Below are positions 1-44,622 of a stretch of DNA of 44,927 bases, in pieces. The stretch lies in the sequence record PZ871095.1. One strand, 5' to 3'. The DNA comes from a phage. Each line of letters opens with the position of its first letter. Positions within the stretch are counted from its first letter, which is position 1. The position numbers and the translations under genes are program-made. Under the pieces are notes generated by a model that did no database searches, was not told the origin of the DNA, and saw only the letters and a program-made list of their open reading frames with translations.

Positions 1-573
1 ATGCACAAAAGGGCTTATATCATGGCAGAAATCAAAGTTAAGGGCCGACGCGCCAAACTGGACGGACGAGTGGCAGTAACCCCGCGCCGTAAACCAGGCG
101 AGCAAACCGAGCATACCAATCTCGGACCTGAAATCGAGTACGGAAAGCGCCGTAAAGGCGGCAAATGTGGACGCCCTACTGACTACCGATCCGTTTACTG
201 CGACCAGCTTCGTCGCTATTTCGCCGACGCCGACGCCTGGCAGGTCAACTACTCCGATAAAGGCGCTGCGCAGGTAATCCCTCGCAACAAAATGCCAACC
301 TTCGGTCGATTTGCCGCGGAAATCGGCGTTGGCGTTGCTTGCCTGTATCGCTGGGCGCGTGCGCATGAGGAGTTTGCCGAGGCGATGGCGGACGCGATGG
401 AGTTGCAGAAAACTTTCCTGATGGAAGCTGGCGGCGTGACCATCGCGGCGGGCTTCGCGACCTTCCTGCTTAAAGCCAACCACGGAGTCCGCGACGATAT
501 CCCACTGGATGACGACGAAGATGATAACGGCGACGTCGTTGTCGAACCTACCGGAAAAGGCCAGGGCGAATAA
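1..573 (+). CDS. putative terminase small subunit
   Basis: 190-aa ORF immediately upstream of the large terminase, overlapping it by 1 nt (TAATG); basic N-terminus, HTH-like segment, acidic C-terminal tail. True start may be the ATG at 22 (MAEIKV). Confidence 0.5.
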   Translation: MHKRAYIMAEIKVKGRRAKLDGRVAVTPRRKPGEQTEHTNLGPEIEYGKRRKGGKCGRPTDYRSVYCDQLRRYFADADAWQVNYSDKGAAQVIPRNKMPTFGRFAAEIGVGVACLYRWARAHEEFAEAMADAMELQKTFLMEAGGVTIAAGFATFLLKANHGVRDDIPLDDDEDDNGDVVVEPTGKGQGE

Positions 574-1958
574 TGCGTAACTATGCGGCAGAACACCGCG
601 CACTGGAGCGCACGATCGCAAAGCGCAACCGACCACCACGCCCGACACGCGTTGCGCAGGCCGTCCGCCTGTACCAGCCTGATTGCCTACCGCACCAGGT
701 CGAACTACTGCGGGACACGAAGACTAAAATCCTCGGCCTGTGTTCCGGATTCGGCGGCGGCAAGTCATGGGTCGCCGCCCGTAAGGTAATCCAGCTTTTA
801 ACCCTGAACCCTGGTTATGACGGCATCGTGACCGAACCGACTATTCCACTCCTGGTTAAAATCATGTATCCGGAACTGGAGAAGGCATTCGACGAGGCTG
901 GCTTCCGGTGGAAGTTCAATAAGCAGGACAAGATCTATAACGTGCTGGTGAAAGGGAAATGGACCCGCGTTATCTGTGAATCAATGGAGAACTATACCCG
1001 CCTGATCGGGGTCAACGCCGCATGGATTGTCGCCGACGAGTTCGACACCACGAAACAAGACGTCGCAATGGCGGCATACCACAAATTGCTCGGTCGTCTG
1101 CGTGCGGGCTTCGTCCGCCAGTTTGTCATCGTGTCCACGCCGGAAGGCTACCGGGCGATGTATCAAATTTTCGAGGTGGAGAAGGGTAGCCAGAAGCGCC
1201 TGATCCGGGCGAAGACCACGGACAACCACCATTTACCGGCAGACTTTATCGACACGCTGCGCAGTCAGTACCCGACTAACCTGATTGATGCGTACCTGAA
1301 CGGCCTGTTTGTTAACCTTACGTCTGGCGCGGTGTACAAGATGTTCAACCGCGAGGAGAACGCCAGCACCGAAGAAGTGCAGCCGGACGACACGCTGATT
1401 ATCGGTATGGACTTTAACGTCACGAAAATGGCGGCGGTTGTGTATGTCAGACGGCAGCGCATCACCGAGAACAAGGAGTTCCGCGACGAGATCCACGCAG
1501 TGGATGAATTTGTGGACCTGTTTGACACCCCGGCTATGATTGAGGCGATCGAGGAGCGCTATCCGGAACATTGTGCCGCCGGTAGGGTCGTCGTTTACCC
1601 GGATAGCAGCGGCAAATCCCGCAAGACGGTCAACGCGTCGTCGTCCGATATCGCACAACTGGAAGACGCGGGCTTCGAGGTGGAATATGACAGCGTTAAC
1701 CCGCCAGTGAAAGACAGACTTATCGCGATGAATACGATGATGTGCAACTCGAAGGGCGTGCGCCAGTATTTTGTCAACCTGGATAAATGCCCTACACTAG
1801 CGAAATGTCTGGAGCAGCAGGTGTACGACCTGAAGAAAGGCGAACCGGATAAAACTGCCGGTGTGGACCACATGAATGACGCGGCGGGCTACCCGATTGC
1901 GCACTTGTTCCCTGTGATTCGTCCGATCGCCGTTGTTCCAACCGTAGACTTCTACTAA
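573..1958 (+). CDS. terminase large subunit
   Basis: 461 aa; Walker A-like GLCSGFGGGKS near the N-terminus; ATG start confirmed; sits directly before the portal gene. Confidence 0.9.
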   Translation: MRNYAAEHRALERTIAKRNRPPRPTRVAQAVRLYQPDCLPHQVELLRDTKTKILGLCSGFGGGKSWVAARKVIQLLTLNPGYDGIVTEPTIPLLVKIMYPELEKAFDEAGFRWKFNKQDKIYNVLVKGKWTRVICESMENYTRLIGVNAAWIVADEFDTTKQDVAMAAYHKLLGRLRAGFVRQFVIVSTPEGYRAMYQIFEVEKGSQKRLIRAKTTDNHHLPADFIDTLRSQYPTNLIDAYLNGLFVNLTSGAVYKMFNREENASTEEVQPDDTLIIGMDFNVTKMAAVVYVRRQRITENKEFRDEIHAVDEFVDLFDTPAMIEAIEERYPEHCAAGRVVVYPDSSGKSRKTVNASSSDIAQLEDAGFEVEYDSVNPPVKDRLIAMNTMMCNSKGVRQYFVNLDKCPTLAKCLEQQVYDLKKGEPDKTAGVDHMNDAAGYPIAHLFPVIRPIAVVPTVDFY

Positions 1959-1969
1959 GGAAACCGACC

Positions 1970-3490
1970 ATGACCGTTAACGTTGACAACCAGCACCCGC
2001 TCTATGCGCGCATCGCGCCAGAGTGGAAAATGATCCGTGACTGCGTAGCGGGGGAGCGCGCCGTGAAGGCGTGCGGCCCCTTGTACCTGCCACACCCAGC
2101 AAGCGGCGACACCTCCGACCCGAAATCTCGGGCACGCTATAAGGCATATAAGCAACGTGCTGTCTTCCTGAACGCCACCGCCCGCACACTGAATGCACTG
2201 TTAGGCGTCGCCTTCGCCAAACCGGTGAGTATGGACCTTTCCGGGGCAATGGCTGACCTGATCGAAGACGTAGACGGCAGCGGGATGCCCCTGGCACAAC
2301 TCCTGCGCGGCGCTATGTCGGAAGTGCTGCAATCAGGCCGTGCCGGGTTTATGGTCGACTACGACCGCCAGGCGCATTTTGACGAACTGGGTAACGTAGT
2401 ACCGCAGACCGCCGCTGAAATGGCAGCACACCGCCCGCTTATCCGCCTGTATACGGCTGAACAGATCATTAACTGGCGGCAGACCCACGGCGTCGACACG
2501 CTGATTGTGCTGAAGGAAACGGACGAAATCAGCACCGAAGACCCGGACGACTTCGCAAACCACGAAGTAACGATCTGGACCGAGCTTCGCATGATTGCAG
2601 GTAAGGCCCACGCCCGCCGCTGGTTTTACAACGCTGACACGTCCGAGGTGCAGATGGACTTGCCGCGAGGCTTCACCCGCACCGACCTTGTACCATTGGT
2701 GGATGCCTCCGGTAATGCGCTAACTCAACTGCCATTTTGCTGGTGTGGCGCGGTGGACAACAACGCGACACCGGACGCCGCACCGCTGGCGGATATTGCG
2801 TCCATCAACATTAAGCACTACAACGCCGAAGCGGACGTCGCCGAGATTGCGCACATCGTGGGGCAACCTACCCTCATTGCGACTGGTCTTACCCAATCAT
2901 GGGCGGACAAGAACCTGAAAGGCGGCATCGCGCTCGGGGCAACTAAGGGCGTTATCCTGGGCCAGAACATGGACGCCAAACTGCTTCAGGCGGAGGAGCG
3001 CAACTTGTCGGTTGCACTGTGTGAGCGCCGTGAATTGCAAATGGCTAAACTGGGCGCGGCCCTGGTCGAGAAGGGGACCGCACCTAAGACGGCAACCGAA
3101 GCGGCCTACGATGCGCAGACTGATAACAGTATCCTGTCACTGATTGCCGGTAACGTTGAGAAGGCTTTCAACCGTGCGCTGCAAATCGTCAAGCTGTTCA
3201 CGGGCGACACCGCAGATCAACGCGTAACGCTGAATAAGTTCTACACCGAAATCACGGTTGACGCACAGCTTATGACCGCAATGATGGCGGGTGTGCAGAC
3301 CGGTACGGTCCGTCTGGCGGACTTTATCAAGTGGATGATGGCCCAGGGCGTTATTGATGACTCGCAAACCGTCGAGCAGGTGGAAGACGAACTGCGAAAT
3401 CAGAATCCATTGCCTCAAATGTCCCCGGATGCGGTAGAATCGACCAAAGAAGCCCCGGACGAGGTAGCGGACAATGGCGAAGACAATTAA
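1970..3490 (+). CDS. portal protein
   Basis: 506 aa between terminase and head morphogenesis gene; acidic C-terminus; AAGGAAA ribosome-binding site before the ATG at 1970. Confidence 0.85.
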   Translation: MTVNVDNQHPLYARIAPEWKMIRDCVAGERAVKACGPLYLPHPASGDTSDPKSRARYKAYKQRAVFLNATARTLNALLGVAFAKPVSMDLSGAMADLIEDVDGSGMPLAQLLRGAMSEVLQSGRAGFMVDYDRQAHFDELGNVVPQTAAEMAAHRPLIRLYTAEQIINWRQTHGVDTLIVLKETDEISTEDPDDFANHEVTIWTELRMIAGKAHARRWFYNADTSEVQMDLPRGFTRTDLVPLVDASGNALTQLPFCWCGAVDNNATPDAAPLADIASINIKHYNAEADVAEIAHIVGQPTLIATGLTQSWADKNLKGGIALGATKGVILGQNMDAKLLQAEERNLSVALCERRELQMAKLGAALVEKGTAPKTATEAAYDAQTDNSILSLIAGNVEKAFNRALQIVKLFTGDTADQRVTLNKFYTEITVDAQLMTAMMAGVQTGTVRLADFIKWMMAQGVIDDSQTVEQVEDELRNQNPLPQMSPDAVESTKEAPDEVADNGEDN

Positions 3491-4577
3491 TCAATATATG
3501 GCGGATCGAATGATTCGCCGTCACATCTTCACCCAGCGCCTGAGTAATGACCAGGCGCGGATGGTGTTGGCTATGTGGGAGAAGTTCCGGCCCACGTTAC
3601 TGGGTAAGCTGACCGAGTTGCTTGATGGTAAAAAGTCCATGAGCAACAAGGCGCTTACCACCCTGTTAACGCAACTCGACAAGACCGTCAAAACGGAACT
3701 GCGCACCGAGTTTAAGGTGCTGGCTGAAAGCCTTCAGGAGTTCGCCGACACCGAGGCCGATTATCTCGCCGACACATTAACGGCAGCGATCCAGCCGGTG
3801 GTCGCCGTACCTGCGGTCGAGGTGGTTGGCGTAGTGACCGGCGCGCAGATCGCAGCAACGGCAATGAAAAACCCGTTCCTGGGCAATACCATGATGCAAT
3901 GGCCCGACTCACTTTCTGAGTGGACCAGGACGCAGATCGGTAATCAGGTGCGGGCGGGATTCATCCAGGGCAAGCCAACGATGGAAATTATCGCGGACGT
4001 GAGGCGCGCGCTAGGCGGTCGTAGTGCGCAAGCCATCTCAAGCGTTGTTAAGTCCGCAGTCAACCACTATGCGGCGACCGCCCGCGAACTAATGGTAAAA
4101 GCAAATGACGATATTCTCGAAGGTCGCCAATGGTTATCTACATTGGACACGCATACTTCTCCCATGTGCCAGCTACGCGATCGCCTGTTTTATCCGGTTG
4201 ATGTTACTCCCGACACCAAAGGAAAGCGCGGCGGGAAAGTGGTGGCTGGGTCACAATATGGCGCTGGTCCGGGCAAGTTGCATTATTGCTGCCGCTCGAC
4301 GGAGACGTGGAAAGTCAAAGGTATGGAAGATTGGCCCAGTGGTAAGCGTCCGGCACTGAAGGCCGACGCGGGCAGATTGCTGAGTGAGCAGGTCGACGCG
4401 CAGACGGATTTCTTCTCATGGGTACAGCGCCAGCCGCGCCATATCCTGGAGGAATTATATGGAGTGCAACGCGCCGACCAGATTATGCGCGGCGTGAAAG
4501 TGCCGAAGATGTTTACCGATTCTGGCGAACTGATGACTATCGCACAGCTTAAAAACCGGGGGTTATGGCGTGATTAA
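3474..4577 (+). CDS. head morphogenesis protein (Mu F / SPP1 gp7-like minor head protein)
   Basis: 367 aa overlapping the portal 3' end; conserved-looking WLSTLDTHTSPMCQ segment typical of this family; position after portal. Confidence 0.7.
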   Translation: MAKTINQYMADRMIRRHIFTQRLSNDQARMVLAMWEKFRPTLLGKLTELLDGKKSMSNKALTTLLTQLDKTVKTELRTEFKVLAESLQEFADTEADYLADTLTAAIQPVVAVPAVEVVGVVTGAQIAATAMKNPFLGNTMMQWPDSLSEWTRTQIGNQVRAGFIQGKPTMEIIADVRRALGGRSAQAISSVVKSAVNHYAATARELMVKANDDILEGRQWLSTLDTHTSPMCQLRDRLFYPVDVTPDTKGKRGGKVVAGSQYGAGPGKLHYCCRSTETWKVKGMEDWPSGKRPALKADAGRLLSEQVDAQTDFFSWVQRQPRHILEELYGVQRADQIMRGVKVPKMFTDSGELMTIAQLKNRGLWRD

Positions 4578-4899
4578 ATACGCAGCGATTGGGCTGGTTA
4601 TCGGTCTGGCGGTAGGATTCTGGCTAGGTGACTCCTATCGCGCTGGCGTAGTGGCGGAGGCGGCGCAAGAAGCGCAAGCCAAAGCCCAACGGCAGCAAAC
4701 TAAAGTAATCGAGCGCTCCGTGCAGGCAGAACAAGCCCGCGACGTGGAATACCGGACTATCACAAAAGAGGTTGTTAAATATGTTACGCGCCCTAACCGC
4801 CCTGATTGTAGTTTTGACGCTGAGCGCGTGCGGATCAAGCAGCGTGCCGTTGATGCCGCTAACGGAGTCGGCACTGCGACCGCCGTGCAAGTTCGATAA
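4570..4899 (+). CDS. Rz-like inner-membrane spanin (i-spanin)
   Basis: GTG start; N-terminal transmembrane segment AAIGLVIGLAVGFWLG followed by a charged coiled-coil-like region rich in A/Q/E/R; a lipoprotein ORF is embedded in the +1 frame. Confidence 0.6.
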   Translation: MIKYAAIGLVIGLAVGFWLGDSYRAGVVAEAAQEAQAKAQRQQTKVIERSVQAEQARDVEYRTITKEVVKYVTRPNRPDCSFDAERVRIKQRAVDAANGVGTATAVQVR

Positions 4900-5011
4900 C
4901 CCGTCTGCGGACCCCGACGAAGATTTGATGATTGACGTGAAAAATATGGAATGCGGGGCGAAGCTAAGGGCGCAGGTGCTCGAGTTGCAGCAAATAATTA
5001 AGGGGCCGTAA
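4781..5011 (+). CDS. Rz1-like outer-membrane lipoprotein spanin (o-spanin)
   Basis: Starts inside the i-spanin gene in another frame; lipoprotein signal MLRALTALIVVLTLSAC with lipobox LSAC; proline-rich mature part with extra Cys; AAAGAGG ribosome-binding site before ATG 4781. Confidence 0.65.
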   Translation: MLRALTALIVVLTLSACGSSSVPLMPLTESALRPPCKFDNPSADPDEDLMIDVKNMECGAKLRAQVLELQQIIKGP

Positions 5012-5025
5012 TGGCCCCTTTTTGT
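5001..5025. terminator. hairpin terminator between convergent genes (GGGGCC-gtaat-GGCCCC + TTTTTG)
   Basis: Perfect 6-bp GC stem followed by a T-run on the plus strand; lies between the plus-strand spanin stop and the minus-strand gene ending at 5025. Confidence 0.6.
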
Positions 5026-5789
5026 TAGCGCGGAATGCCGCAAATCTCGTTGAGTGTTTTCACATCCAGCGCCACTGCCGTGGATTTTGGCTTGTCCGGG
5101 TACGGGATGAATTGCTCGACTTCAGGCCATGCCTTAATCAGCTTCTTGTCAGTATTGTGCAGGTCCAGCACACCGGTAACGGTCAACTTGAATGCGTCAT
5201 ACTTCGCACGCAATTCGCGGCGGGCCTGGTCGTTACGGTCCAGGCGCTTACAGAAGTCATGGTCCGCAGGGTAATCTGCGCGACCGCGAGGGAGATATAT
5301 CGGCAGCGCTTTCCCGTCCTCGTCCACTTCGCACACTGACGCGAGCATAACTGTCTCGAACCCCGGAACGATATCGCCGAGATCAGGCGCGAGCTTATTC
5401 ATATATTTCTCTTCCCAGTATCCGCGATGTACGCGGTATCGGCGACCGTCACCGCTCAAGGACAAGGTGCGAACATTTCCGCCTGCGTTGATTTCGAAAG
5501 TGGCGTCGTAAACGCTGCCGATACCTTTCGGGCGGTCGGTGTTATAACTATATGTCGCCTTGTTGGTGTATACACAGACGCCGTACATCTGCGACTGGTC
5601 GTCGCGAATTGCCTTGATATGCTCGCGGAGCGCTGCGAACGTGCGAATGCCTTCCGGCATACAGTCCAGCGTTATTGCGTACGCCAGATCGCGTGAGTCC
5701 ATCATGATTTGTTTGGCTTCGGTTGCGATTTCGTGGTCGCGCAGGATGTTAGATAGGATCTGATTTTTAATGTCTTTTGTCAGTCTCAT
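5025..5789 (-). CDS. hypothetical protein (minus-strand gene inside the head module)
   Basis: 254-aa ORF with ATG start and GAGGA ribosome-binding site; opposite strand to the flanking structural genes; no motif recognised. Confidence 0.7.
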   Translation of the reverse strand: MRLTKDIKNQILSNILRDHEIATEAKQIMMDSRDLAYAITLDCMPEGIRTFAALREHIKAIRDDQSQMYGVCVYTNKATYSYNTDRPKGIGSVYDATFEINAGGNVRTLSLSGDGRRYRVHRGYWEEKYMNKLAPDLGDIVPGFETVMLASVCEVDEDGKALPIYLPRGRADYPADHDFCKRLDRNDQARRELRAKYDAFKLTVTGVLDLHNTDKKLIKAWPEVEQFIPYPDKPKSTAVALDVKTLNEICGIPR

Positions 5790-5828
5790 TTTTGTGTCCT
5801 CATTATTGGGGCTTTCGCCCCGATTGGT

Positions 5829-6143
5829 TTAGTTAAATTTGATGTTGCCGCCGGTTGAGGTTAAGCGAGCACATACAGATTCAACGGCATCGACGCACAT
5901 GAAATCGTTAAAGGCTTCGACCAGGGCGTTTATGAATGATGCCGGAACCAGGCCGCAAGCCGGATTATCGAATATCGCGGAGTTGATCGCCGCTTTTGCC
6001 GCTTCGGAAGCATTCATGCTCTGGCACAGATTCAGCGCTTCCGCGTTACGCATTGCGTGAAAGGTAAAGGTATTCGCTACGGTAGCTTTATTGAAACGGG
6101 CCATTGCGGCGTCTACTGGAGTTGCTACGGTCATGTTAGTCAT
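5829..6143 (-). CDS. hypothetical small Cys-containing protein (minus-strand gene)
   Basis: 104 aa from ATG (MTNMTVATP) with AAGGAAA ribosome-binding site; four Cys; co-oriented with 5025..5789. Confidence 0.6.
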   Translation of the reverse strand: MTNMTVATPVDAAMARFNKATVANTFTFHAMRNAEALNLCQSMNASEAAKAAINSAIFDNPACGLVPASFINALVEAFNDFMCVDAVESVCARLTSTGGNIKFN

Positions 6144-6178
6144 TTTGTTTTCCTTCATATCTCTGTTGGTGTGCAACC

Positions 6179-6208
6179 AATATAATGCAACCAACATACG
6201 CAATGCAA
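6179..6208 (-). promoter_or_regulatory. putative sigma70-type promoter for the minus-strand gene pair (TTGCAT-N18-TATATT)
   Basis: Minus-strand reading cgcTTGCATtgcgtatgTTGGTTGCATTATATTGGTTGCAC; contains two copies of the recurring TTGGTTGCA motif; about 30 nt upstream of the ATG at 6143. Confidence 0.4.
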
Positions 6209-6298
6209 GCGAATTTTGCGATTATTTTTATCGCTGATAATATTAGAAGCGTGAAGTCGAGCGGGTGGCCTGCTCTGCCACAATCCCAGGGGGATAGC

Positions 6299-7000
6299 AT
6301 GAAACTTACTAAAGCAGAATATGACGCGTTGCCGGAAGGTATGAAGGCGCTTTTTGTTGCCGATGGCGACGGGTATAAATCAACTTTCATGACCGCAGAA
6401 GAAGTACAGGCGGAAATCAAGGGTCTGAAAGACAACAACGCGAAGCTGGTGAGCGAGAAGAAAGCAGAAGCTGAACGCCGCGCCGAAGCTGAGCGCCTTG
6501 CGAAAGAGAAAGAGGAAGCCGCCGCGCGCAAAAATGGCGACCTCGAAGCGATCGACAAGTCCTGGAAAGATAAGTTTGCGAAACACGAAGCAGACACAGC
6601 GGGAAAAATCGAAGCCTACCGCAAGCAGATCCACGATCTAACCATCGGCAGCGCTGCCAAAGACCTGGCATCGAAGCTATTCGGTAAGAATGCCGGCATC
6701 ATGCAACGCCACGTAATGGACCGTCTGACGCTGGAAGACGGCGAAGACGGCAGCTTGAAAGTGCGTGTCTTGCAGGATGGCAAACCGTCCGCGCTGACTA
6801 TGGAAGAGTTAGAAAAAGAGTTCCGTAATAACGCCGATTTTGCATCCGTCCTGGCTGGCACGCCAGCCGGTGGCGCGCCTAGCAAACCGACGCAGGTTGT
6901 CGAAGATGTGAAGTCTAAAATTACGATGGGCCATAGCTTCGGTATCACCGATCTCACCAAACAGGCCGGTGAAATCATCGCTAAAATGGGTGACGAGTAA
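6299..7000 (+). CDS. putative scaffolding protein
   Basis: 233 aa immediately upstream of the major capsid gene; long charged K/E/A-rich helical-looking stretch; ATG 6299 with AGGGGGA ribosome-binding site. Confidence 0.65.
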   Translation: MKLTKAEYDALPEGMKALFVADGDGYKSTFMTAEEVQAEIKGLKDNNAKLVSEKKAEAERRAEAERLAKEKEEAAARKNGDLEAIDKSWKDKFAKHEADTAGKIEAYRKQIHDLTIGSAAKDLASKLFGKNAGIMQRHVMDRLTLEDGEDGSLKVRVLQDGKPSALTMEELEKEFRNNADFASVLAGTPAGGAPSKPTQVVEDVKSKITMGHSFGITDLTKQAGEIIAKMGDE

Positions 7001-7097
7001 GCAGATTGCCCGCGAAAGCGGGCAATTTTGCGAGCGCGTAAAACTAAGGTAACATTAATGCCACTGGGCGAATGCTCACAACTCAAAGGATTTCGAT

Positions 7098-8198
7098 ATG
7101 TCTTTAACAGTGTTCCAGCGTAAACTCGTTACCGCGGTTACGCAAATGATCCCCGACAACCTGAACGTATTCAACGCTGCCGCCAATGGCGCTGTTGTTC
7201 TCGGTACTGGTGAAGTGCTGAAGGATGTTATTGAGAAAATGTCCGTAGGCTTGATCGCCAACCTCGTTACCGACCGTAACGCCTACGCCCCTGTCGGCAC
7301 TCCGGCAACCGCGAAAGTGCTGGCGCGTATGCTGACCAACTCGGTTAACCTTTCCGCAAAAGTGGGTCCGGTAGCAATTACGAAGGCCATGATGGCTAAA
7401 ATCGAAACCAACGTTAACAGCGTTGCGGCTGAGATTGCGGCGCAGGCTACTCAAGCGATTATGCTGCACTACCTGAAAGCGGGTATCGGCGCAAGTAAAG
7501 CGGCGATCGAAAGCAACGCAGCGGCAAAATACACCCAACCGGCGCGCGTTGACGGCGTTGGCGGTCGTACCTTCCCGACCCTGGCAGACTTCCCGCTGGC
7601 GGCTTCTAAGTTCGGCGATCAGGCGTCTTTGATTAAGTCCTGGTTTATGGACGGCGTTACCTGGGCAAACTTCATTGCGTACCAGGCACTCCCTTCCGCT
7701 GAACAGGTATTCGCAATTGGCGATCTCCAGGTAATGGGCGATGGCCTGGGCCGTCGCTTCATTATCTCCGATGCCGCTGCCGATGCTATGGGTGCGGGCA
7801 ACATGCTGGGTCTGGTCCCTGGCGCGGTTGCAGTTACCACCAACGGCCTCGATATGCTGGCGCAGGAAAAAGGCGGTAACGAGAACATCGAGCGCTGGTG
7901 GCAGGGCGAGTTTGACTTCAACGTGGCTGTTAAAGGCTACCGTCTGAAGGCGTCCGCTCGTACCCCGATCGAAGGCGTTCGCTCGTTCAAACTGTCCGAC
8001 ATCACCACTTCCGCTAACTGGGAACTGGATCAGGGCCAGGTAGACAACGCACCGGCAACCGTTCAGGATGTTGGCGCTGTGGGTGATGGCGATACTAAAG
8101 GCCGTCGTAAGACCCAGGCAGCACAGGCAGTGCCGACCCGTCACATCAAGGAAACCGCAGGCGTACTGGTTAAGCTGACGGCGACTACCGCGTCTTAA
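7098..8198 (+). CDS. major capsid protein
   Basis: 366 aa after the scaffold; A/G/V-rich capsid-like composition; followed by a strong terminator; AAGGA ribosome-binding site. Confidence 0.85.
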   Translation: MSLTVFQRKLVTAVTQMIPDNLNVFNAAANGAVVLGTGEVLKDVIEKMSVGLIANLVTDRNAYAPVGTPATAKVLARMLTNSVNLSAKVGPVAITKAMMAKIETNVNSVAAEIAAQATQAIMLHYLKAGIGASKAAIESNAAAKYTQPARVDGVGGRTFPTLADFPLAASKFGDQASLIKSWFMDGVTWANFIAYQALPSAEQVFAIGDLQVMGDGLGRRFIISDAAADAMGAGNMLGLVPGAVAVTTNGLDMLAQEKGGNENIERWWQGEFDFNVAVKGYRLKASARTPIEGVRSFKLSDITTSANWELDQGQVDNAPATVQDVGAVGDGDTKGRRKTQAAQAVPTRHIKETAGVLVKLTATTAS

Positions 8199-8216
8199 CG
8201 GGCGCACATCCCAAAT

Positions 8217-8242
8217 GGGCGGGCTTATGCCCGCCTTTTTTA
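8217..8242 (+). terminator. rho-independent terminator (GGGCGGGC-ttat-GCCCGCC + TTTTTT)
   Basis: GC-rich stem-loop and T6 run immediately after the capsid gene stop. Confidence 0.7.
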
Positions 8243-8256
8243 TAGGAGTGAATCTA

Positions 8257-8757
8257 ATGTATGGCGACCCGCAAACCTTTGTCGATTATGCCGCTGCGCG
8301 AGGCGTTGAAGTCACGTTGGGCGATGCAACGCGACACCTTACCATCGTTAATGACTTCCTTAACGGCATCACCTGGATCGGCGAACAGGCGGACCAGACA
8401 GGAATAGACGCATGGCCCCGCATCAATTACCCATCGGACGGGAAGCCGGTGCGCGACACGCTAACCGAAATCGTGGCGGTAGTGCCTGTCGGGCAGATCG
8501 TAGATTTTGCATCAATCCCCATTGCCGTCGAGCAAGCAGCTTACAGGTTGGCGATGTTGGTGGCGGACGAGGTCGATATTTCTCCTGTTGGCAGTGGTAA
8601 GGAGACTATCCGCGAAACTGTCGGCCCGATCACGATGGAATATGACCCTGCGACGATTGGTAGCGGTGTCTCGTTCCCGTGGTGGGATGGCTTGCTGGGC
8701 CACTGGATTGACACAGACGGCAACGCAGCGGGTAATTTTGACGTATTCCGGGGGTGA
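8257..8757 (+). CDS. putative head-tail connector / head completion protein
   Basis: 166 aa from ATG 8257 with TAGGAG ribosome-binding site; first gene after the capsid terminator; function assigned by position and size. Confidence 0.5.
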   Translation: MYGDPQTFVDYAAARGVEVTLGDATRHLTIVNDFLNGITWIGEQADQTGIDAWPRINYPSDGKPVRDTLTEIVAVVPVGQIVDFASIPIAVEQAAYRLAMLVADEVDISPVGSGKETIRETVGPITMEYDPATIGSGVSFPWWDGLLGHWIDTDGNAAGNFDVFRG

Positions 8758-21977: not shown

Positions 21978-22000
21978 AGGCCCCGAAAGGGGCCTATTTG
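21978..22000. terminator. hairpin terminator between convergent genes (AGGCCCC-gaaa-GGGGCCT)
   Basis: 7-bp GC stem between the plus-strand gene ending 21974 and the minus-strand gene ending 21994; T-runs are weak on both strands. Confidence 0.5.
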
Positions 22001-22212
22001 CAGGTTGTGCTTTTGAAATGGTCAACTGACACATACTGGAAGTTAAACGGGTATCCCGCCCTGAGCATTTTGTGGCCGCTAAAATCCGCGACCCCAAACA
22101 CGGGGACTGAGTAATCCATGCCGCTATTCTGGTACGTCGCGTCGCAGACTTTAGCTGGCATGTTGGCACAACCGGACAAAAGAACTGCACAAATCATAAT
22201 TAAAGTTTTCAT
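21994..22212 (-). CDS. small outer-membrane lipoprotein (Cor-like superinfection-exclusion candidate)
   Basis: 72 aa from ATG 22212 (AGGGGATGA ribosome-binding site); lipoprotein signal MKTLIMICAVLLSGC with lipobox LLSGC; sole minus-strand gene among tail genes. Confidence 0.55.
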   Translation of the reverse strand: MKTLIMICAVLLSGCANMPAKVCDATYQNSGMDYSVPVFGVADFSGHKMLRAGYPFNFQYVSVDHFKSTTCK

Positions 22213-22292
22213 GGTATCATCCCCTATATTTGGTTGAGTTTTAGTATTACACCGCTCAACCAGGATTGCAACCAATTTATGAGGATTTAGCT

Positions 22293-24047
22293 ATGGCGGC
22301 GGGTACTCTATCCGTAACGAATAACAGCAAGGCGGTTGTTGGGGTTGGCACGACGTTTACCGCGCTGAAGGCTGGCGACTTCCTGTCGCTGGTAGTGGGG
22401 CAAGTCCCTTACACTGTCGCTATTGCATCCGTAGAAAGTGACACCGCGCTTACGCTGGTGCTGCCGTTCGATGGCCCAACGGCAACCGGCCTCGCATGGG
22501 ATAGCGTGGCGCGCGATACAATGTCGCTTGCGACTATGGGCGTAACCGTCCAGGCGCAGAAAGCATTGCGCTTGCTGATTGCAGATGAGAACAACTGGCG
22601 CGCAATCTTCGGCGACGATGAAGAAATCACAGTGACGTTACCTAACGGGCAGGTTATGCAGGGCATGTCATGGGGCTATCTGTCACAGTTGATGAAACAG
22701 ATCGACCCCGTTGAGATGCGCAACCTGCAACAACAAGCCGCCGCATCTGAAGCAGCCGCGCAAGGATTTCGTAACGAGGCTGAAGGATTTCGAGACGGCG
22801 CGCAAGGATACCGCAACGAGGCGCTCCAATTCCGCACCGACTGCGAAGGGCTGAAGAACGAAACGACAAACCTTCGCAACGATGCGCTCCAATTCCGCAC
22901 CGACTGCGAAGGGCTGAAGAACGAAACGACAAACCTTCGCAACGATGCTAACACAGCTAAGACTGGCGCGGAGACGGCACGCGATCAGGCGCAGAACATC
23001 GCCGACGGTATGGACCCTGGACAGTATATGCAGAAATCTGCAAACCTGAGCGATGTAGTGGATAAGGCGCAAGGCCGCGCGAATATGGGTCTTGGCACTA
23101 CAGATGCCGTGGAGTTTGGTGGGGCCACCCTCAATGGTCACACCCGCATCAATGGCTCGTTGCTGTTGGGGCGTAACCAGTGGGATGGGTCTAGCTGGGG
23201 GAGCTACGGACTACAATCGTCATTCGTCATCATGTCGCCGGATGGAGACTCCGAGCCGGGATTTTACATCAGGCCGCTATCGGGTGCGCCTGGGTACGCA
23301 ACGTCGTTCACCTATAATCTCGCGATTAATCTTTTCAGCACCAGTGCTCGCATCAAGGCGGTTAACTTCTCATCCAGCACTACGACTATGGGATATAACG
23401 AGATGTGGTCACGTGCATGTTTCCAGGGGCAGCCATACGAGGCCCAGGCGGGGGTTGAGAACTACCAATCGCTTGTCGCAGGTACTTGCGGTACGGTATC
23501 ACACGGATTTTACGGTGGCGTTGCGTTCGGCATGATGACTGCTGGCGGGGATGGGTGGCCTGTCGGTCAGATCTCGATCGGCACGCAGGACAGAGCCGCT
23601 GATGGCACTATCGGATTACAAATGCACTTCCGTTTCCATTCATCCGGTAACATTACGTATACGGGGCCGGCGGGGTCGGGGTCATTCCAGCAAATCCCGG
23701 CATCTGACCGCAACATTAAGCATGATATTAAAGACGATAAATCCAGCACAGCATACGATAACATTAGAGCCATTCGATTCCGTAATTTCGTATTTAATGA
23801 TGACGAGCAGGAGCGTATTCGTCGCGGGGTTATCGCACAGGAGCTTGAAGAAATCGACCCGCTTTATGTTAAGCACCGCGAATACCACAACATGGAGCTT
23901 AACGGGCCGAAGATTACTCGACTGGAGCTTGACACGACGCCGCTGTTACTGGACACAATGCGAGCGTTGCAGGATACGATTAAGCAGGTGGAGGAGTTGA
24001 AGGCCGAGATCGCAGCTATGAAACAGGTGGAGGAGTTGAAGAAATAA
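22293..24047 (+). CDS. tail fiber protein with C-terminal intramolecular chaperone (S74 peptidase-like) domain
   Basis: 584 aa from ATG 22293 (GAGGA ribosome-binding site); SDRNIKHDIKD... segment characteristic of autoproteolytic fiber chaperone domains; internal exact tandem repeat. Confidence 0.8.
   Translation: MAAGTLSVTNNSKAVVGVGTTFTALKAGDFLSLVVGQVPYTVAIASVESDTALTLVLPFDGPTATGLAWDSVARDTMSLATMGVTVQAQKALRLLIADENNWRAIFGDDEEITVTLPNGQVMQGMSWGYLSQLMKQIDPVEMRNLQQQAAASEAAAQGFRNEAEGFRDGAQGYRNEALQFRTDCEGLKNETTNLRNDALQFRTDCEGLKNETTNLRNDANTAKTGAETARDQAQNIADGMDPGQYMQKSANLSDVVDKAQGRANMGLGTTDAVEFGGATLNGHTRINGSLLLGRNQWDGSSWGSYGLQSSFVIMSPDGDSEPGFYIRPLSGAPGYATSFTYNLAINLFSTSARIKAVNFSSSTTTMGYNEMWSRACFQGQPYEAQAGVENYQSLVAGTCGTVSHGFYGGVAFGMMTAGGDGWPVGQISIGTQDRAADGTIGLQMHFRFHSSGNITYTGPAGSGSFQQIPASDRNIKHDIKDDKSSTAYDNIRAIRFRNFVFNDDEQERIRRGVIAQELEEIDPLYVKHREYHNMELNGPKITRLELDTTPLLLDTMRALQDTIKQVEELKAEIAAMKQVEELKK
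22821..22946. repeat. exact 63-bp tandem duplication (2 copies) inside the tail fiber gene
   Basis: gcgctccaattccgcaccgactgcgaagggctgaagaacgaaacgacaaaccttcgcaacgat appears twice back to back, encoding ALQFRTDCEGLKNETTNLRND twice. Confidence 0.9.
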
Positions 24048-41449: not shown

Positions 41450-41749
41450 ATGGGGCAGATTATGATTCATGATGTGATTTATTGGTTTGGTTTGATCTGC
41501 GGGCTATGCCTGCTTACCGCGGTGCTGTTGGGCATCCTGATGTTCGTCGTATGGCCTGCAGTGGAAGCCGCCAGTATTACCCGCATGACGTTCGAGGTAT
41601 ACAAGCGCCGAGGGATCACGGAGCACCCGACCAGGTTGCGCATGTGGTGGCTGTGGTATCGGGATATGATAGGCGGGCGAACATTCGAGGCCGTCCGGTC
41701 GAGTGGATGGGAGTGGAAAGGCGTCGGCAAGTGGTCCATTTTCGATTAA
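41450..41749 (+). CDS. small membrane protein
   Basis: 99 aa (alternative ATG at 41462); N-terminal hydrophobic segment WFGLICGLCLLTAVLLGILMFVVW; a 33-aa hydrophobic ORF (41364..41465) lies just upstream. Confidence 0.5.
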   Translation: MGQIMIHDVIYWFGLICGLCLLTAVLLGILMFVVWPAVEAASITRMTFEVYKRRGITEHPTRLRMWWLWYRDMIGGRTFEAVRSSGWEWKGVGKWSIFD

Positions 41750-41801: not shown

Positions 41802-42092
41802 ATGGATAAGCTAAACGAGTGGTTATTCGCCCTTGCGTGTCTGGCTGGCGGCTTCGTAGGCGCACGCATTCACGGCGAGGCCACGAAAGGGCCGCTAAAC
41901 TTCGTTTTATATATCGTAGTTGGCTTCCTGTGTGCCATATTTGGCGCACCGGCTATCGCTGAGTGGGCTGGTTTATCTGGCGAGCGCACTGTCGCCGGTT
42001 TGGGCTTCGTAACTGCAATCTTCTGGATGCCAATAGCCGCCCGGATCAGGGAGACTATTGAGTCGTTCCGACTTCCGGGGGGCGTAAAATGA
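41802..42092 (+). CDS. putative holin
   Basis: 96 aa with two to three predicted transmembrane segments and a charged C-terminus; immediately upstream of the endolysin gene. Confidence 0.6.
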   Translation: MDKLNEWLFALACLAGGFVGARIHGEATKGPLNFVLYIVVGFLCAIFGAPAIAEWAGLSGERTVAGLGFVTAIFWMPIAARIRETIESFRLPGGVK

Positions 42093-42334
42093 TTATCTCC
42101 GTCCTGTTGTTTGTTATCATAGGGGCTTCGTCCCTGTTTAACGTGTATGCGCCGTCCGTTCAGGATGGCTTCTTCGGTCGGGTGTTATATCTGCTAACAG
42201 CAATGACCTGTATTGTCGGGCTGTTGCAAACGGGAGACGTATCTGACGCCACCTGGACCGCGTTAATCTGGCTGTTTGCATTGCGCACGCTGCGTAATGC
42301 TGTTTTGAATGGGGTAAAGCATGCGATTCAGTGA
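42089..42334 (+). CDS. small membrane protein (second holin / antiholin candidate)
   Basis: 81 aa with two hydrophobic segments, overlapping the holin stop and the endolysin start. Confidence 0.5.
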   Translation: MIISVLLFVIIGASSLFNVYAPSVQDGFFGRVLYLLTAMTCIVGLLQTGDVSDATWTALIWLFALRTLRNAVLNGVKHAIQ

Positions 42335-42812
42335 CAACGGTCTAAGATTTACGGCGGCATGGGAGCAATTCAGCCCAGTGCCGTATTTCGCGACTAAGAA
42401 AGAGCAGGCCCGCGGCCTGTATACCTGGGGCTATGGTCACACCGGCACTAATCCGCCGCGGAGCATTACCCGTGCGGAAGCACTGGAGCTACTCAAGCGC
42501 GACGTGGCGTATGCAGAGGACTGGGTGAACAAATACGCACATCCGAGCATTACTCAGGCGCAATTCGACGCGCTGGTGGACCTGGTTATCAATGCTGGTC
42601 CAGGTCCGATCATGCCGGACGACGTCGCGGGTGATTTCGACGATGCGATCCGCCTGGGTGACTGGGCGAAGGTACGAGCTACTCTGCCGCAGTTCCGCAA
42701 GCAAGGCGGGGAAGTGCTTAAGGGTCTGGTACGTCGAGCAATCGGCAGGCAGGCGCTATTCGATGGAAAGCAGTGGGACGTTGCCGAGAAGATCGGACGT
42801 AACGCAGCATAA
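42321..42812 (+). CDS. endolysin (lysozyme, T4/lambda-type glycoside hydrolase)
   Basis: 163 aa with a LYTWGYGHTG segment matching the conserved lysozyme core; lysis-cassette context. Confidence 0.85.
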   Translation: MRFSDNGLRFTAAWEQFSPVPYFATKKEQARGLYTWGYGHTGTNPPRSITRAEALELLKRDVAYAEDWVNKYAHPSITQAQFDALVDLVINAGPGPIMPDDVAGDFDDAIRLGDWAKVRATLPQFRKQGGEVLKGLVRRAIGRQALFDGKQWDVAEKIGRNAA

Positions 42813-42828
42813 TACGGGGTAACACAGT

Positions 42829-43242
42829 ATGTTAAGAAGTATTCTTGATCATAACGCCGACGCGATTGCCGCGCTGGCTAAAACAGAAGACCCAGGCGCT
42901 CGCGCTATCATCGCGGACACTATCAGCCATGCGGGGGTCTTCGACGCGAAGTTACCCAGTCCGCCGGAAAGTAAGCCGGTGACGAGTGCGACCGTAACTA
43001 TCGCACCGGAATCCGCCGCAGTTGGTGCGAAGGCCACCGCTTCGGTTGCGGTCCAGCCATCCGACGCGACTAACAAGGCCGGGAAGTGGGTGTCGTCGAA
43101 TCCTGCCTGCGCGGCAATAGATCAGACTACCGGCGAAATCACAGCCCAAACGGCAGGTAGCGCCCACATCTTTTGGGTGGCCTCCGATGGTAGCGGGGTG
43201 ATAGCGTCCGCCATCTTCACCGTAACGGGAGCAGAAGAATAA
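42829..43242 (+). CDS. Ig-like (Big_2-type) domain protein
   Basis: 137 aa; C-terminal ~80 aa look like a bacterial Ig-like domain (alternating hydrophobic beta pattern, GEITAQTAGSAHIFWVASDGSG); followed by a terminator. Confidence 0.5.
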   Translation: MLRSILDHNADAIAALAKTEDPGARAIIADTISHAGVFDAKLPSPPESKPVTSATVTIAPESAAVGAKATASVAVQPSDATNKAGKWVSSNPACAAIDQTTGEITAQTAGSAHIFWVASDGSGVIASAIFTVTGAEE

Positions 43243-43479: not shown

Positions 43480-44622
43480 ATGCACCCGCAAACTAAAATT
43501 ACCGATGAGCAATTGATCGCAGAAATTCAGGCCGGAACTACGGTTAAAGAGATTGCGAAGAAGTACGGCATTGCACTTCGAAATGTCTACATGCGCAAAG
43601 CCCGCCTGTCAAAAAAGGGGATTGGTCACGGTAATGATGCCGTAATCCGCAAGCGCGTTGCCGATGGCTTTGGGGTTAAGCGCGTATCGGCCCTGGTGCG
43701 CGGCAATGGCGAAGAGGTCATGTCGTGGGTCATCACTGAGCAGGACAAAGAGCGCCAACTCGAAGCCATGCGCGCTGTTGTCGAGGGTATGAACAGCGAA
43801 ATCACACCGGCAGCGCCAGTAAAAGCCCCGCCAGTACCGATCCAGGCGCTCGACTTGCTCAACCTGTACACCGTGTCAGACTTCCACCTGGGCATGTTGG
43901 CATGGGGCGAGGAGACTGGCGAAGACTGGGATATGGCGATCGCCGAAGACCTGTTCTACCGCTGGTTTGTCGAAGCCTTCGCACGCGCCCCGGACGCAGG
44001 CACTGCCGTAATTAATATCCTCGGTGATATGGCCCACTTTGATAGCCTCGATGCTGTCACTCCGGCAAGTGGTCACATACTGGACGCTGACACCCGCTAC
44101 CAGAAACTGGTCCGATACATGATTCGCATGGTGCGCAACGTAGTCGAACTGGCGCTGCAAAAACACCACAAAGTCAAACTGCTAATCGTCCAGGGAAATC
44201 ATGACGAATCGGGTATGATTTGGCTGGCTGAGATGTTCAATACTCTGTACGAGAACGAGCCGCGCGTCGATGTAGATACGTCACCGGACGTATACAAGAT
44301 GGTGCAGCACGGTAAGACCACGCTGTTTTTCCACCACGGGCACAAAGCGCGATTCGATGCTATCGAGCCGGTTATGATTTCTAAATTCAGACAGGCTTTC
44401 GGGTCCAGTGAGTACAGCTACGCGCACGTAGGCCACTTGCACCACCAGAAGATTGTAGAATCCCGCAACATGATTGTTGAACAGCACCGGACGCTCGCAG
44501 CGAAAGACGCCTACGCCAGCCGTGGTGGTTGGATGTCCGGTCGCAGCGCCAACGTCATTACCTACAGCGCCAACTACGGCGAAGTAGCGCGCTTAACCAT
44601 TAGCCCGGAAATGTTGAAATGA
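43480..44622 (+). CDS. HTH-domain / calcineurin-like metallophosphoesterase fusion protein
   Basis: 380 aa; N-terminal HTH-like TVKEIAKKYGIALRNVY; phosphoesterase motifs DFHLG (DxH), ILGDMAH (GDxxH), VQGNHDE (GNHD/E), FFHHGH and AHVGHLHH. Confidence 0.7.
   Translation: MHPQTKITDEQLIAEIQAGTTVKEIAKKYGIALRNVYMRKARLSKKGIGHGNDAVIRKRVADGFGVKRVSALVRGNGEEVMSWVITEQDKERQLEAMRAVVEGMNSEITPAAPVKAPPVPIQALDLLNLYTVSDFHLGMLAWGEETGEDWDMAIAEDLFYRWFVEAFARAPDAGTAVINILGDMAHFDSLDAVTPASGHILDADTRYQKLVRYMIRMVRNVVELALQKHHKVKLLIVQGNHDESGMIWLAEMFNTLYENEPRVDVDTSPDVYKMVQHGKTTLFFHHGHKARFDAIEPVMISKFRQAFGSSEYSYAHVGHLHHQKIVESRNMIVEQHRTLAAKDAYASRGGWMSGRSANVITYSANYGEVARLTISPEMLK

What the first reader, a model, noticed from the sequence alone, without database searches (positions are those of the whole stretch)
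4570..5011. Embedded spanin pair located in the head module, far from the holin-endolysin cassette
A transmembrane coiled-coil protein (4570..4899) contains, in the +1 frame, a lipoprotein gene with lipobox LSAC (4781..5011) that extends past the outer gene's stop. That is the overlapped Rz/Rz1 architecture. Holin and endolysin lie at 41802-42812, about 6.7 kb away even if the genome is treated as circular, separated by terminase and portal genes. Spanins detached from the lysis cassette and placed after the head morphogenesis gene are unusual.
Basis: partly seen in the sequence, partly recalled or inferred. Interest (0 to 1): 0.5.

Follow-up and report, generated by a model that had tools for sequence, protein, structure and literature searches.

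The report
Known overlapped spanin pair, Dhillonvirus phage
The two overlapping genes are a real spanin pair (the proteins that break the outer membrane at the end of phage lysis). Both the genes and their position in the head-gene block are already annotated and catalogued for this phage genus and its relatives, so the finding is correct but ordinary.

Summary
4570..4899 (+) encodes a 109-aa protein with one N-terminal transmembrane segment. 4781..5011 (+), in the +1 frame, encodes a 76-aa lipoprotein precursor (lipobox LSA|C) that overlaps it by 119 nt and runs 112 nt past its stop. Both match PHROG "Rz-like spanin" families (8e-37; 2.5e-26).

The window is a complete Dhillonvirus (HK578/SSL-2009a-like) genome. 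RefSeq SSL-2009a annotates the same two genes as Rz-like spanins. Kongari et al. 2018 list HK578, JL1, SSL-2009a and EP23 in the overlapped "Jersey" spanin family.

This detached position, between the head-morphogenesis and scaffold genes, is not special to this phage:
- at least 137 phage records (nearly all Dhillonvirus) carry the same contiguous stretch;
- Kagunavirus Snoke and Jerseyvirus PVP-SE2 have the same gene order, and their head and lysis genes are homologous at 24-52% aa identity.

A lambdoid-type Klebsiella phage carries the same family directly after holin and endolysin, which supports the functional call. T4 is the textbook case of spanins unlinked to the lysis cassette.

The title word "embedded" is wrong; the arrangement is "overlapped". 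Verdict: already known, low interest. No experimental test of this family was found.

The parts
4570..4899 (+). i-spanin gene. It encodes a 109-aa type II inner-membrane protein with a GTG start. The N-terminal TMD covers about aa 4-22. The periplasmic domain is predicted helical (aa ~23-72 and 84-97), with a Pro-rich loop carrying the single Cys80 and a variable C-terminal tail.
   Evidence: ORF, hydropathy; phrog_2536 Rz-like spanin, 8.3e-37; RefSeq AV954_gp05 'Rz-like spanin' at the same position; conserved in 20/20 genomes; AF2 helices, low confidence
4781..5011 (+). o-spanin gene. It encodes a 76-aa outer-membrane lipoprotein precursor in the +1 frame. The signal peptide ends in lipobox LSA|C (Cys17) with Gly at +2. 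The mature 60-aa part is Pro-rich with conserved Cys36 and Cys59 and a C-terminal helix-like segment.
   Evidence: ORF, lipobox; phrog_5672 2.5e-26, phrog_1267 2.4e-11, both Rz-like spanin; RefSeq AV954_gp06; the ATG, not the upstream TTG 4772, is the start common to all relatives; Cys residues conserved
4781..4899 (+). 119-nt dual-coding overlap. It encodes the variable i-spanin C-terminus and, in the other frame, the o-spanin signal peptide plus the N-terminal part of the mature protein.
   Evidence: variable sites by i-frame codon position 14/3/12; neither frame shows a clean third-position pattern, as expected for dual coding
5000..5020 (.). GC-rich hairpin (AAGGGGCCG-TAA-TGGCCCCTT) followed by TTTTTG. 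It looks like a bidirectional intrinsic terminator between the convergent o-spanin (+) and Nmad5 (-) genes. The o-spanin stop codon lies in the loop.
   Evidence: terminator-like on both strands; dG -20.5 kcal/mol, z -3.39; the HK578 record annotates 'terminator (x2)' here
3474..4577 (+). Head-morphogenesis gene (SPP1 gp7/Mu F-like). Its stop overlaps the i-spanin start by 8 nt. The spanins therefore appear to be the last cistrons of the terminase-portal-head morphogenesis transcription unit.
   Evidence: phrog_241, 2.8e-114; overlap. No promoter-like site was found between 3285 and 5777 on the + strand (a weak negative).
41802..42812 (+). The separate lysis cassette: holin (41802..42092), second holin (42089..42334) and a lysozyme-family endolysin with no N-terminal hydrophobic segment (42321..42812). 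These are the functional partners of the spanins.
   Evidence: phrog_2359, phrog_2508, phrog_7; PF00959, 1.9e-20; TM-like segments; distance

Best explanation
The locus is the two-component spanin of a Dhillonvirus phage.

Inferred mechanism, taken from the lambda Rz/Rz1 paradigm and not tested for this family:
- The i-spanin inserts into the inner membrane by its N-terminal TMD and extends a largely helical domain into the periplasm.
- The o-spanin is exported, lipidated on Cys17 and sorted to the inner leaflet of the outer membrane, because it has no Asp at +2.
- The two C-terminal regions bind each other, and homotypic disulfides form through the conserved periplasmic Cys residues. The resulting complexes span the periplasm through the peptidoglycan mesh.
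- The complexes stay inert until the holins (41802..42334) trigger and the endolysin (42321..42812) destroys the murein. They are then free to collapse and fuse the inner and outer membranes, which completes lysis.

Because the complex is held in check by intact peptidoglycan rather than by its time of synthesis, the genes need only late expression, not linkage to the holin. Here they are the last two cistrons of the packaging/head operon. The i-spanin start overlaps the head-morphogenesis stop, and a terminator follows the o-spanin stop.

This placement goes with a head module that is homologous between Dhillonvirus and the two Guernseyvirinae genomes examined, so it looks inherited rather than recent.
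For: Shown by sequence:
- TMD, lipobox, +2 Gly, overlapped +1 architecture and RBS-like sites.
- Terminator hairpin.

Shown by homology:
- phrog_2536, and phrog_5672/phrog_1267, all 'Rz-like spanin'.
- RefSeq SSL-2009a annotates both genes as Rz-like spanins at the same position.
- Kongari et al. 2018 place HK578, JL1, SSL-2009a, EP23, EK99P-1 and SO-1 in the overlapped 'Jersey' i- and o-spanin families. They describe the shorter EP23-to-SO-1 subfamily as two helices with one beta motif in the linker, and note conserved Cys in the o-spanin.

Shown by conservation:
- 20/20 genomes keep both ORFs, the TMD, the lipobox Cys, the i-spanin Cys and two o-spanin Cys.
- Substitutions follow the codon-position pattern of the correct frame.

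Shown by context:
- In Klebsiella phage Kp4884-1 the same two families (phrog_2536 at 2.6e-45; phrog_5672 at 4.3e-21) lie directly after a holin and an endolysin and downstream of a Q-like antiterminator. This is the canonical cassette position.
- In Kagunavirus Snoke (annotated by the Center for Phage Technology) and Jerseyvirus PVP-SE2, homologous spanins lie between the head-morphogenesis and scaffold genes, and homologous holins and endolysin lie upstream of the terminase genes.
- The Jerseyvirus SeF1 paper reports the same PHROG set for gene products 9/10 (spanins) and 63-65 (two holins and the endolysin).
- No other o-spanin or u-spanin candidate exists in the window.
Against: - I found no experimental test (complementation, knockout or localisation) for any member of this spanin family in the searchable literature. 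Function rests on homology, architecture and context.
- Neither protein matches a Pfam family at E <= 0.1. Membership of the lambda Rz/Rz1 sequence families is therefore not shown; the link to lambda is by analogy.
- The structure model is low confidence (pLDDT 60.7), so 'coiled coil' is not demonstrated.
- Co-transcription with the head genes is inferred from gene overlap and a consensus-level scan only.
Confidence: 0.93

Rival explanations
1. The lipoprotein and the TM protein are a moron-type accessory pair rather than lysis proteins, for example a superinfection-exclusion or envelope-modifying function. This would fit the variable gap between the head-morphogenesis and scaffold genes, which also carries other accessory genes.
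For: - The gap between the head-morphogenesis and scaffold genes holds different unrelated cargo in different genera: Nmad5 and a hypothetical gene here, and a decoration protein plus a sliding clamp in Snoke.
- Phage lipoproteins such as Cor and Llp do act in exclusion, and this genome has one.
- There is no experimental proof of spanin function for this family.
Against: - The same family sits immediately after holin and endolysin in a lambdoid-type lysis cassette.
- The full set of spanin hallmarks is present and conserved: N-terminal TMD partner, +1 overlapped lipoprotein, periplasmic Cys residues.
- The genome has no other spanin candidate, although its holins and endolysin are canonical. 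Without this pair the phage would lack an outer-membrane disruption function.
- The exclusion lipoprotein role is already filled by the Cor homologue next to the tail fibre gene.
Confidence: 0.04
2. Only one of the two frames is a real gene, and the overlapping ORF is a by-product of sequence composition.
For: - Many GenBank records annotate only one of the two genes, or call the o-spanin with a truncated start. Over9000 gp6 starts at the equivalent of window 4853, and SECphi18 lacks the i-spanin call.
Against: - Both frames are open in 20/20 genomes down to about 27-40% aa identity, with function-specific residues conserved.
- Each protein independently matches its own PHROG family.
- Each non-overlapping part shows third-position bias in its own frame.
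- The annotation gaps are the known gene-caller bias against overlapping genes described by Kongari et al..
Confidence: 0.02

Closest known systems
'Jersey' overlapped i-spanin/o-spanin family of Kongari et al. 2018 (PMC6139136), corresponding to PHROG 2536 plus PHROG 5672/1267; specifically its shorter subfamily (EP23, HK578, JL1, SSL-2009a, EK99P-1, SO-1)
   Same: - Direct sequence membership: 94-98% aa identity to the listed Dhillonvirus members, and about 38-44% to the Jerseyvirus and Kagunavirus members examined.
- The same overlapped +1 architecture.
- The same two-helix i-spanin layout and the same conserved Cys residues.
- The same genomic position after the head-morphogenesis gene.
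   Different: Nothing of substance. This window is another isolate-level variant, about 96.6% nt identity to vb_EcoS_bov11C2 over the locus.
Phage lambda Rz/Rz1 (prototype two-component spanin)
   Same: - Type II inner-membrane protein plus outer-membrane lipoprotein encoded in the +1 frame of the same DNA.
- Periplasmic Cys residues for disulfide-linked dimers.
- The presumed membrane-fusion mechanism, released when murein is degraded.
   Different: - No detectable sequence-family membership: no Pfam hit.
- Overlapped rather than fully embedded.
- The i-spanin is shorter (109 aa against 153 aa for lambda Rz, the latter from my own knowledge) and the mature o-spanin is longer, with a C-terminal helix-like segment.
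- The genes are 6.7 kb from the holin-endolysin genes instead of directly following them.
Phage T4 PseT.3/PseT.2 spanins
   Same: - Spanin genes not located near the holin (t) and endolysin (e) genes, stated explicitly in Kongari et al. Fig. 8 legend.
- Short i-spanin (117 aa) and a comparatively long o-spanin (83 aa) with a C-terminal helix.
   Different: - T4 genes are 'separated' (non-overlapping), and all T4 lysis genes are scattered.
- Here the holins and endolysin remain a compact cassette, and only the spanins are displaced, into the head module.
Spanin pair of Klebsiella phage Kp4884-1 (OK490463.1), a lambdoid-type genome
   Same: - Same PHROG families.
- 39.6% aa identity for the i-spanin.
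- Overlapped architecture.
   Different: It sits in the canonical Q - holin - endolysin - spanin position just upstream of the terminase genes. The family therefore occurs in both linked and unlinked arrangements.

Membership tests
Two-component spanin (functional class, Young-lab definition) | i-spanin: a small integral inner-membrane protein with a single N-terminal TMD (N-in, C-out) and a predominantly alpha-helical periplasmic domain | tested here: met
   Hydropathy segment at aa ~1-23, with a mean Kyte-Doolittle score up to 1.9. The AF2 single-sequence model has helices at 5-72 and 84-97 but is low confidence. Published secondary-structure prediction for this subfamily agrees.
Two-component spanin (functional class, Young-lab definition) | o-spanin: a small protein with a signal peptidase II signal and lipobox, a lipidated Cys at +1, and no inner-membrane retention signal (Asp at +2) | tested here: met
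   The precursor starts MLRALTALIVVLTLSA|CGSS: lipobox LSAC and Gly at +2. A lipobox Cys is present in all 20 relatives. Processing itself was not tested.
Two-component spanin (functional class, Young-lab definition) | o-spanin gene embedded in, overlapping or immediately following the i-spanin gene on the same strand (+1 frame when overlapping) | tested here: met
   Offset 211 nt (+1 frame), 119-nt overlap, with the o-gene extending 112 nt beyond the i-gene stop. This is the 'overlapped' class.
Two-component spanin (functional class, Young-lab definition) | At least one periplasmic Cys available for homotypic intermolecular disulfide bonds | tested here: met
   i-spanin Cys80, and o-spanin Cys36 and Cys59 (precursor numbering), are conserved across Dhillonvirus, Kagunavirus, Jerseyvirus and the Klebsiella phage. 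This matches the observation of Kongari et al. for the Jersey family.
Two-component spanin (functional class, Young-lab definition) | Physical i-/o-spanin complex, and a requirement for outer-membrane disruption (lysis defect in the presence of divalent cations; complementation of lambda RzRz1) | not testable with these tools
   This needs wet-lab work. No published test for this family was found.
Two-component spanin (functional class, Young-lab definition) | Location in the lysis cassette next to holin and endolysin (typical, but not defining) | tested here: not met
   The pair is 6,684 nt from the endolysin stop across the genome ends, and 36.8 kb in linear order. This is not disqualifying: T4 spanins are also unlinked, and the same family is cassette-linked in Klebsiella phage Kp4884-1.
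'Jersey' overlapped spanin family / PHROG 2536 + PHROG 5672 | Significant sequence similarity of both proteins to family members | tested here: met
   phrog_2536 at 8.3e-37 and phrog_5672 at 2.5e-26. tblastn to PVP-SE2 gives 7e-13 and 3e-13; to Snoke, 4e-10 and 5e-12. The named members HK578, JL1, SSL-2009a and EP23 are 94-100% identical.
Lambda Rz / Rz1 sequence families (the Pfam Rz and Rz1 families, recalled from my own knowledge as PF03245 and PF06085) | Match to the Pfam models above the gathering threshold | tested here: not met
   No Pfam family matched at E <= 0.1 for either protein. The relation to lambda Rz/Rz1 is functional and architectural analogy, not demonstrated homology.
Unimolecular spanin (T1 gp11 type) | [quoted passage not shown] | tested here: not met
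   The o-spanin has no C-terminal hydrophobic segment. No such ORF was found anywhere in the window.

The most novel reading that the evidence does not exclude
The most novel reading not excluded is that the conserved placement has regulatory meaning. The spanin pair forms the last cistrons of the packaging/head operon and is translationally coupled to the head-morphogenesis gene. That could tie spanin dosage or timing to head assembly rather than to the holin clock, and selection for this could explain why the position persists between phages whose head proteins share only 24-41% aa identity. An even less likely variant is a second, non-lytic role of the pair during morphogenesis. Nothing in the data requires either. 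Simple inheritance of a neutral rearrangement explains the pattern equally well.
Probability: 0.07. Interest if true: 0.3.

Novelty: already known. Interest (0 to 1): 0.1.

Why it matters
It matters little beyond correct annotation. The pair completes the lysis gene set of this phage (two holins, an endolysin and a two-component spanin). It is also a reminder that spanin searches must cover the whole genome rather than just the neighbourhood of the endolysin. Many GenBank records of this genus still label one or both genes 'hypothetical' or mis-start the o-spanin. The conserved detachment is a modest comparative-genomics point, consistent with the accepted idea that spanins are restrained by intact murein and so need no linkage to the holin timer.

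Tried and rejected
- Pfam and NCBIfam scans of both proteins gave nothing usable: no Pfam hit, and only a sub-threshold signal-peptide-like match to LptM (13 bits against a cut-off of 27.7). Direct membership of the lambda Rz/Rz1 families could therefore not be shown.
- Single-sequence AlphaFold2 of the i-spanin gave a low-confidence model (pLDDT 60.7, pTM 0.20). I used it only for secondary structure and ran no fold search on it.
- The sigma-70 promoter scan of 1..8300 found no more sites than shuffled sequence (5 against 5.4 expected). It neither supports nor excludes an internal promoter for the spanins.
- Literature searches for an explicit discussion of the detached spanin position in Dhillonvirus, Jerseyvirus or Kagunavirus, or for experimental tests of this family, found only annotation-level mentions. 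The Snoke genome announcement does not mention lysis genes.
- I considered a second spanin candidate next to the endolysin. 42829..43242 is an Ig-like (Big_2) protein without a TMD or lipobox. 41450..41749 is a membrane protein of unknown function with no lipoprotein partner. Both were rejected.
- I considered the TTG at 4772 as the o-spanin start. It was rejected because several relatives have a stop codon immediately upstream of the ATG.
- I did not use the large protein-database searches, the metagenome or genome scans, or the RNA tools. The question was settled without them.
Full report
**What the window is**

A megablast of 3400..5900 finds 158 phage records, 143 of them named Escherichia phages. 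The best are about 96.6% identical (vb_EcoS_bov11C2 and relatives). The records read in detail (SSL-2009a, JLBYU60, Over9000) are classified in the genus Dhillonvirus. The window is 44,927 nt and begins with the small terminase gene, like the deposited genomes of about 44-45 kb. It therefore behaves as a complete genome.

**Checking the observation**

The ORF 4570..4899 (+) starts at GTG, the first possible start after an in-frame stop at 4534-4536. A run of G lies 7 nt upstream. The start overlaps the stop of the upstream head-morphogenesis gene (3474..4577) by 8 nt. Its 109-aa product has one strongly hydrophobic N-terminal segment (about aa 4-22). The rest is rich in Ala, Gln, Glu, Lys and Arg, and it has one cysteine (Cys80).

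The ORF 4781..5011 (+) lies in the +1 frame and starts at ATG, 9 nt after AAGAGG. Its 76-aa product begins MLRALTALIVVLTLSA|CGSS: a basic residue, a hydrophobic core, lipobox LSAC and Gly at +2. The mature part is 60 aa, with 7 Pro and two further Cys.

The overlap is 119 nt, and the second gene runs 112 nt past the first gene's stop. In spanin nomenclature this is 'overlapped', not 'embedded' as the finding's title says.

The holin-holin-endolysin cassette is confirmed at 41802..42812 (phrog_2359, phrog_2508, phrog_7; PF00959 at 1.9e-20). The circular distance to 4570 is 6,684 nt. The intervening genes are an Ig-like protein, an exonuclease/phosphoesterase, TerS, TerL, portal and the head-morphogenesis gene.

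**Is it more than chance?**

Yes, for four reasons.

- The two proteins match separate PHROG families, all labelled Rz-like spanin: phrog_2536 at 8.3e-37, phrog_5672 at 2.5e-26 and phrog_1267 at 2.4e-11.
- I examined 20 genomes: 17 Dhillonvirus loci including the window, Kagunavirus Snoke, Jerseyvirus PVP-SE2 and Klebsiella phage Kp4884-1. Both frames are open in all of them. All retain the TMD, a lipobox Cys, the i-spanin Cys in a conserved '...P.R..C.F...' motif, and two o-spanin Cys in 'PPCK' and 'DEDL..DV...(E/Q)C' motifs.
- Among 16 distinct Dhillonvirus sequences, variable sites by codon position are 13/5/34 in the i-only part (i frame) and 8/2/21 in the o-only part (o frame). This is the third-position bias of real genes. 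The overlap shows 14/3/12 in the i frame, the mixed pattern expected of dual coding.
- A six-frame scan for lipoprotein signals found only one other credible lipoprotein ORF, 21994..22212 (-). It is a Cor-type superinfection-exclusion protein next to the tail-fibre gene. The window therefore has no competing o-spanin or unimolecular-spanin candidate.

**Anatomy and likely expression**

The i-spanin start overlaps the head-morphogenesis stop. The o-spanin stop codon sits in the loop of a GC-rich hairpin (5000..5020) followed by TTTTTG. The hairpin folds at -20.5 kcal/mol (z = -3.4), scores as terminator-like on both strands, and lies between the o-spanin and the convergent gene 5025..5789 (-). 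HK578's record annotates terminators at the same place.

The simplest reading, which is an inference, is that the spanins are the last two cistrons of the late terminase-portal-head morphogenesis transcript. The consensus promoter scan was uninformative.

A single-sequence AlphaFold2 model is low confidence (pLDDT 60.7). It gives one long helix at 5-72 (TMD plus periplasmic helix 1), a loop at 73-83 with the Pro-rich segment and Cys80, a second helix at 84-97, and a disordered tail. This agrees with the published description of this subfamily. It supports 'helical' but does not establish 'coiled coil'.

**How it most likely works**

By analogy with lambda Rz/Rz1 (established knowledge, summarised in PMC6139136), the sequence of events would be as follows.

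1. The i-spanin is anchored in the inner membrane.
2. The o-spanin is lipidated and sorted to the outer membrane.
3. Their C-terminal parts associate, and disulfide-linked homodimers form a bridge across the periplasm, threaded through the murein.
4. When the holins trigger and the endolysin degrades the murein, the complexes are released and fuse the two membranes.

Steps shown here are the topology signals, the architecture, the conserved cysteines and family membership. Steps inferred are complex formation, disulfide bonding, membrane fusion and late co-transcription. Because intact murein restrains the complex, no linkage to the holin timer is needed. That explains why a detached position is tolerated.

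**Comparison with what is known**

The pair is already annotated and published.

- RefSeq NC_012223.2 (SSL-2009a, the exemplar of species Dhillonvirus SSL2009a) annotates AV954_gp05 and gp06 as 'Rz-like spanin', at positions equivalent to window 4570..4899 and 4781..5011. Other records call them 'putative spanin'.
- Kongari et al. 2018 list HK578, JL1, SSL-2009a, EP23, EK99P-1 and SO-1 in both the i-spanin and the o-spanin 'Jersey' families, under the 'overlapped' architecture. They describe the shorter 'EP23 to SO-1' subfamily, and they note conserved Cys and Pro in the o-spanins.
- A 2025 description of Dhillonvirus vB_EcoS_P78 lists two holins (ORFs 31, 32), an endolysin (33) and an Rz-like spanin (40). 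That is the same separation.

**Is the position unusual?**

The position is not peculiar to this phage.

- At least 137 records carry the contiguous stretch from head morphogenesis through the spanins to Nmad5.
- Homologues of the two proteins occur in about 650 phage records, mostly Salmonella and Escherichia phages, including Jerseyvirus and Kagunavirus.
- In Snoke (annotated by the Center for Phage Technology) and in PVP-SE2, the i-/o-spanin pair also lies between the head-morphogenesis and scaffold genes. Their holin(s) and endolysin lie several kb upstream of the terminase genes.
- The flanking genes are homologous to those of the window: TerL about 41%, portal about 30%, head morphogenesis 24-28%, holins 27-52% and endolysin about 48% aa identity. 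The arrangement therefore looks inherited from a common ancestor of the two groups.
- A Jerseyvirus paper reports the same PHROG set for gene products 9/10 and 63-65.

The Klebsiella phage Kp4884-1 shows the opposite arrangement. Its gene order is Q-like antiterminator, holin, endolysin, i-spanin (phrog_2536, 2.6e-45), o-spanin (phrog_5672, 4.3e-21), HNH, TerS, TerL. The family therefore also occurs in the textbook cassette position. This is the best contextual support available here for the functional assignment, and it shows that the detached position belongs to a lineage rather than to the protein family. T4 is the classical example of spanins remote from the holin and endolysin genes.

**Membership**

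- The locus meets every sequence-testable criterion of a two-component spanin.
- It is a sequence member of the Jersey/PHROG 2536+5672 family.
- It is not demonstrably a member of the lambda Rz/Rz1 sequence families, since there is no Pfam hit.
- It is not a unimolecular spanin.
- Function (outer-membrane disruption, complex formation, lipidation) could not be tested, and I found no experiment on any family member.

**Verdict**

The spanin interpretation is supported. The 'unusual placement' is real relative to lambda, but it is a clade-wide feature already recorded in databases and in the main spanin survey. Novelty: already known. Interest: low (0.1).

The only residual open point is whether the conserved head-operon placement has regulatory significance. 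The evidence neither requires nor excludes this.

Noticed in passing
window 5025..5789 (-): This is a convergent gene immediately downstream of the spanins. It encodes a full-length Nmad5 protein (nucleotide modification associated domain 5, PF18757, 2.3e-60; phrog_1965). It sits inside the head module between the spanin and scaffold genes. SECphi18 annotates its homologue as 'Nucleotide modification associated protein'. Whether this phage modifies its DNA was not examined.
   Followed up: partly
window 21994..22212 (-): A 72-aa lipoprotein (MKTLIMICAVLLSG|C) lies on the opposite strand between tail genes, just upstream of the tail-fibre gene 22266..24047. It matches the Cor superinfection-exclusion protein family (phrog_1119, 1.5e-27). 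It is the only other genuine lipobox ORF in the window.
   Followed up: partly
window 43480..44622 (+): An exonuclease/phosphoesterase (phrog_704, 2e-161) is about 75% aa identical to homologues in Kagunavirus Snoke and Jerseyvirus PVP-SE2. The other shared proteins are only 24-52% identical, and in those phages the gene sits in a different place (inside the tail region). This suggests relatively recent horizontal exchange.
   Followed up: no
window 41450..41749 (+): A 99-aa protein with a long N-terminal hydrophobic region (aa ~4-44) lies directly upstream of the two holins. It belongs to phrog_2531 (unknown function). A homologue exists in PVP-SE2, where it is not adjacent to the holin. It could be a further lysis-related membrane protein, but nothing supports that yet.
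   Followed up: no
window 42829..43242 (+): The gene immediately after the endolysin, where a spanin would normally be expected, encodes a 137-aa protein with a bacterial Ig-like Big_2 domain (PF02368, 2.7e-10). It has no TMD or lipobox. It is probably a decoration-type or virion-associated Ig protein.
   Followed up: partly
L003 (Over9000) 2954..3112; L018 (SECphi18) 2501..2824; many records: Annotation of this locus is inconsistent across GenBank. Over9000 starts the o-spanin 72 nt too far downstream, which loses the signal peptide and lipobox. SECphi18 omits the i-spanin. PVP-SE2 has the i-/o- labels swapped and the o-gene truncated. Most Dhillonvirus records call both genes 'hypothetical protein'.
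   Followed up: partly
L017 and L018 (divergent Dhillonvirus), i-spanin C-terminus: In the two most divergent Dhillonvirus loci the i-spanin ends 7 codons earlier (...ANRVGL*). This shortens the overlap with the o-spanin, consistent with a dispensable, variable extreme C-terminus.
   Followed up: no
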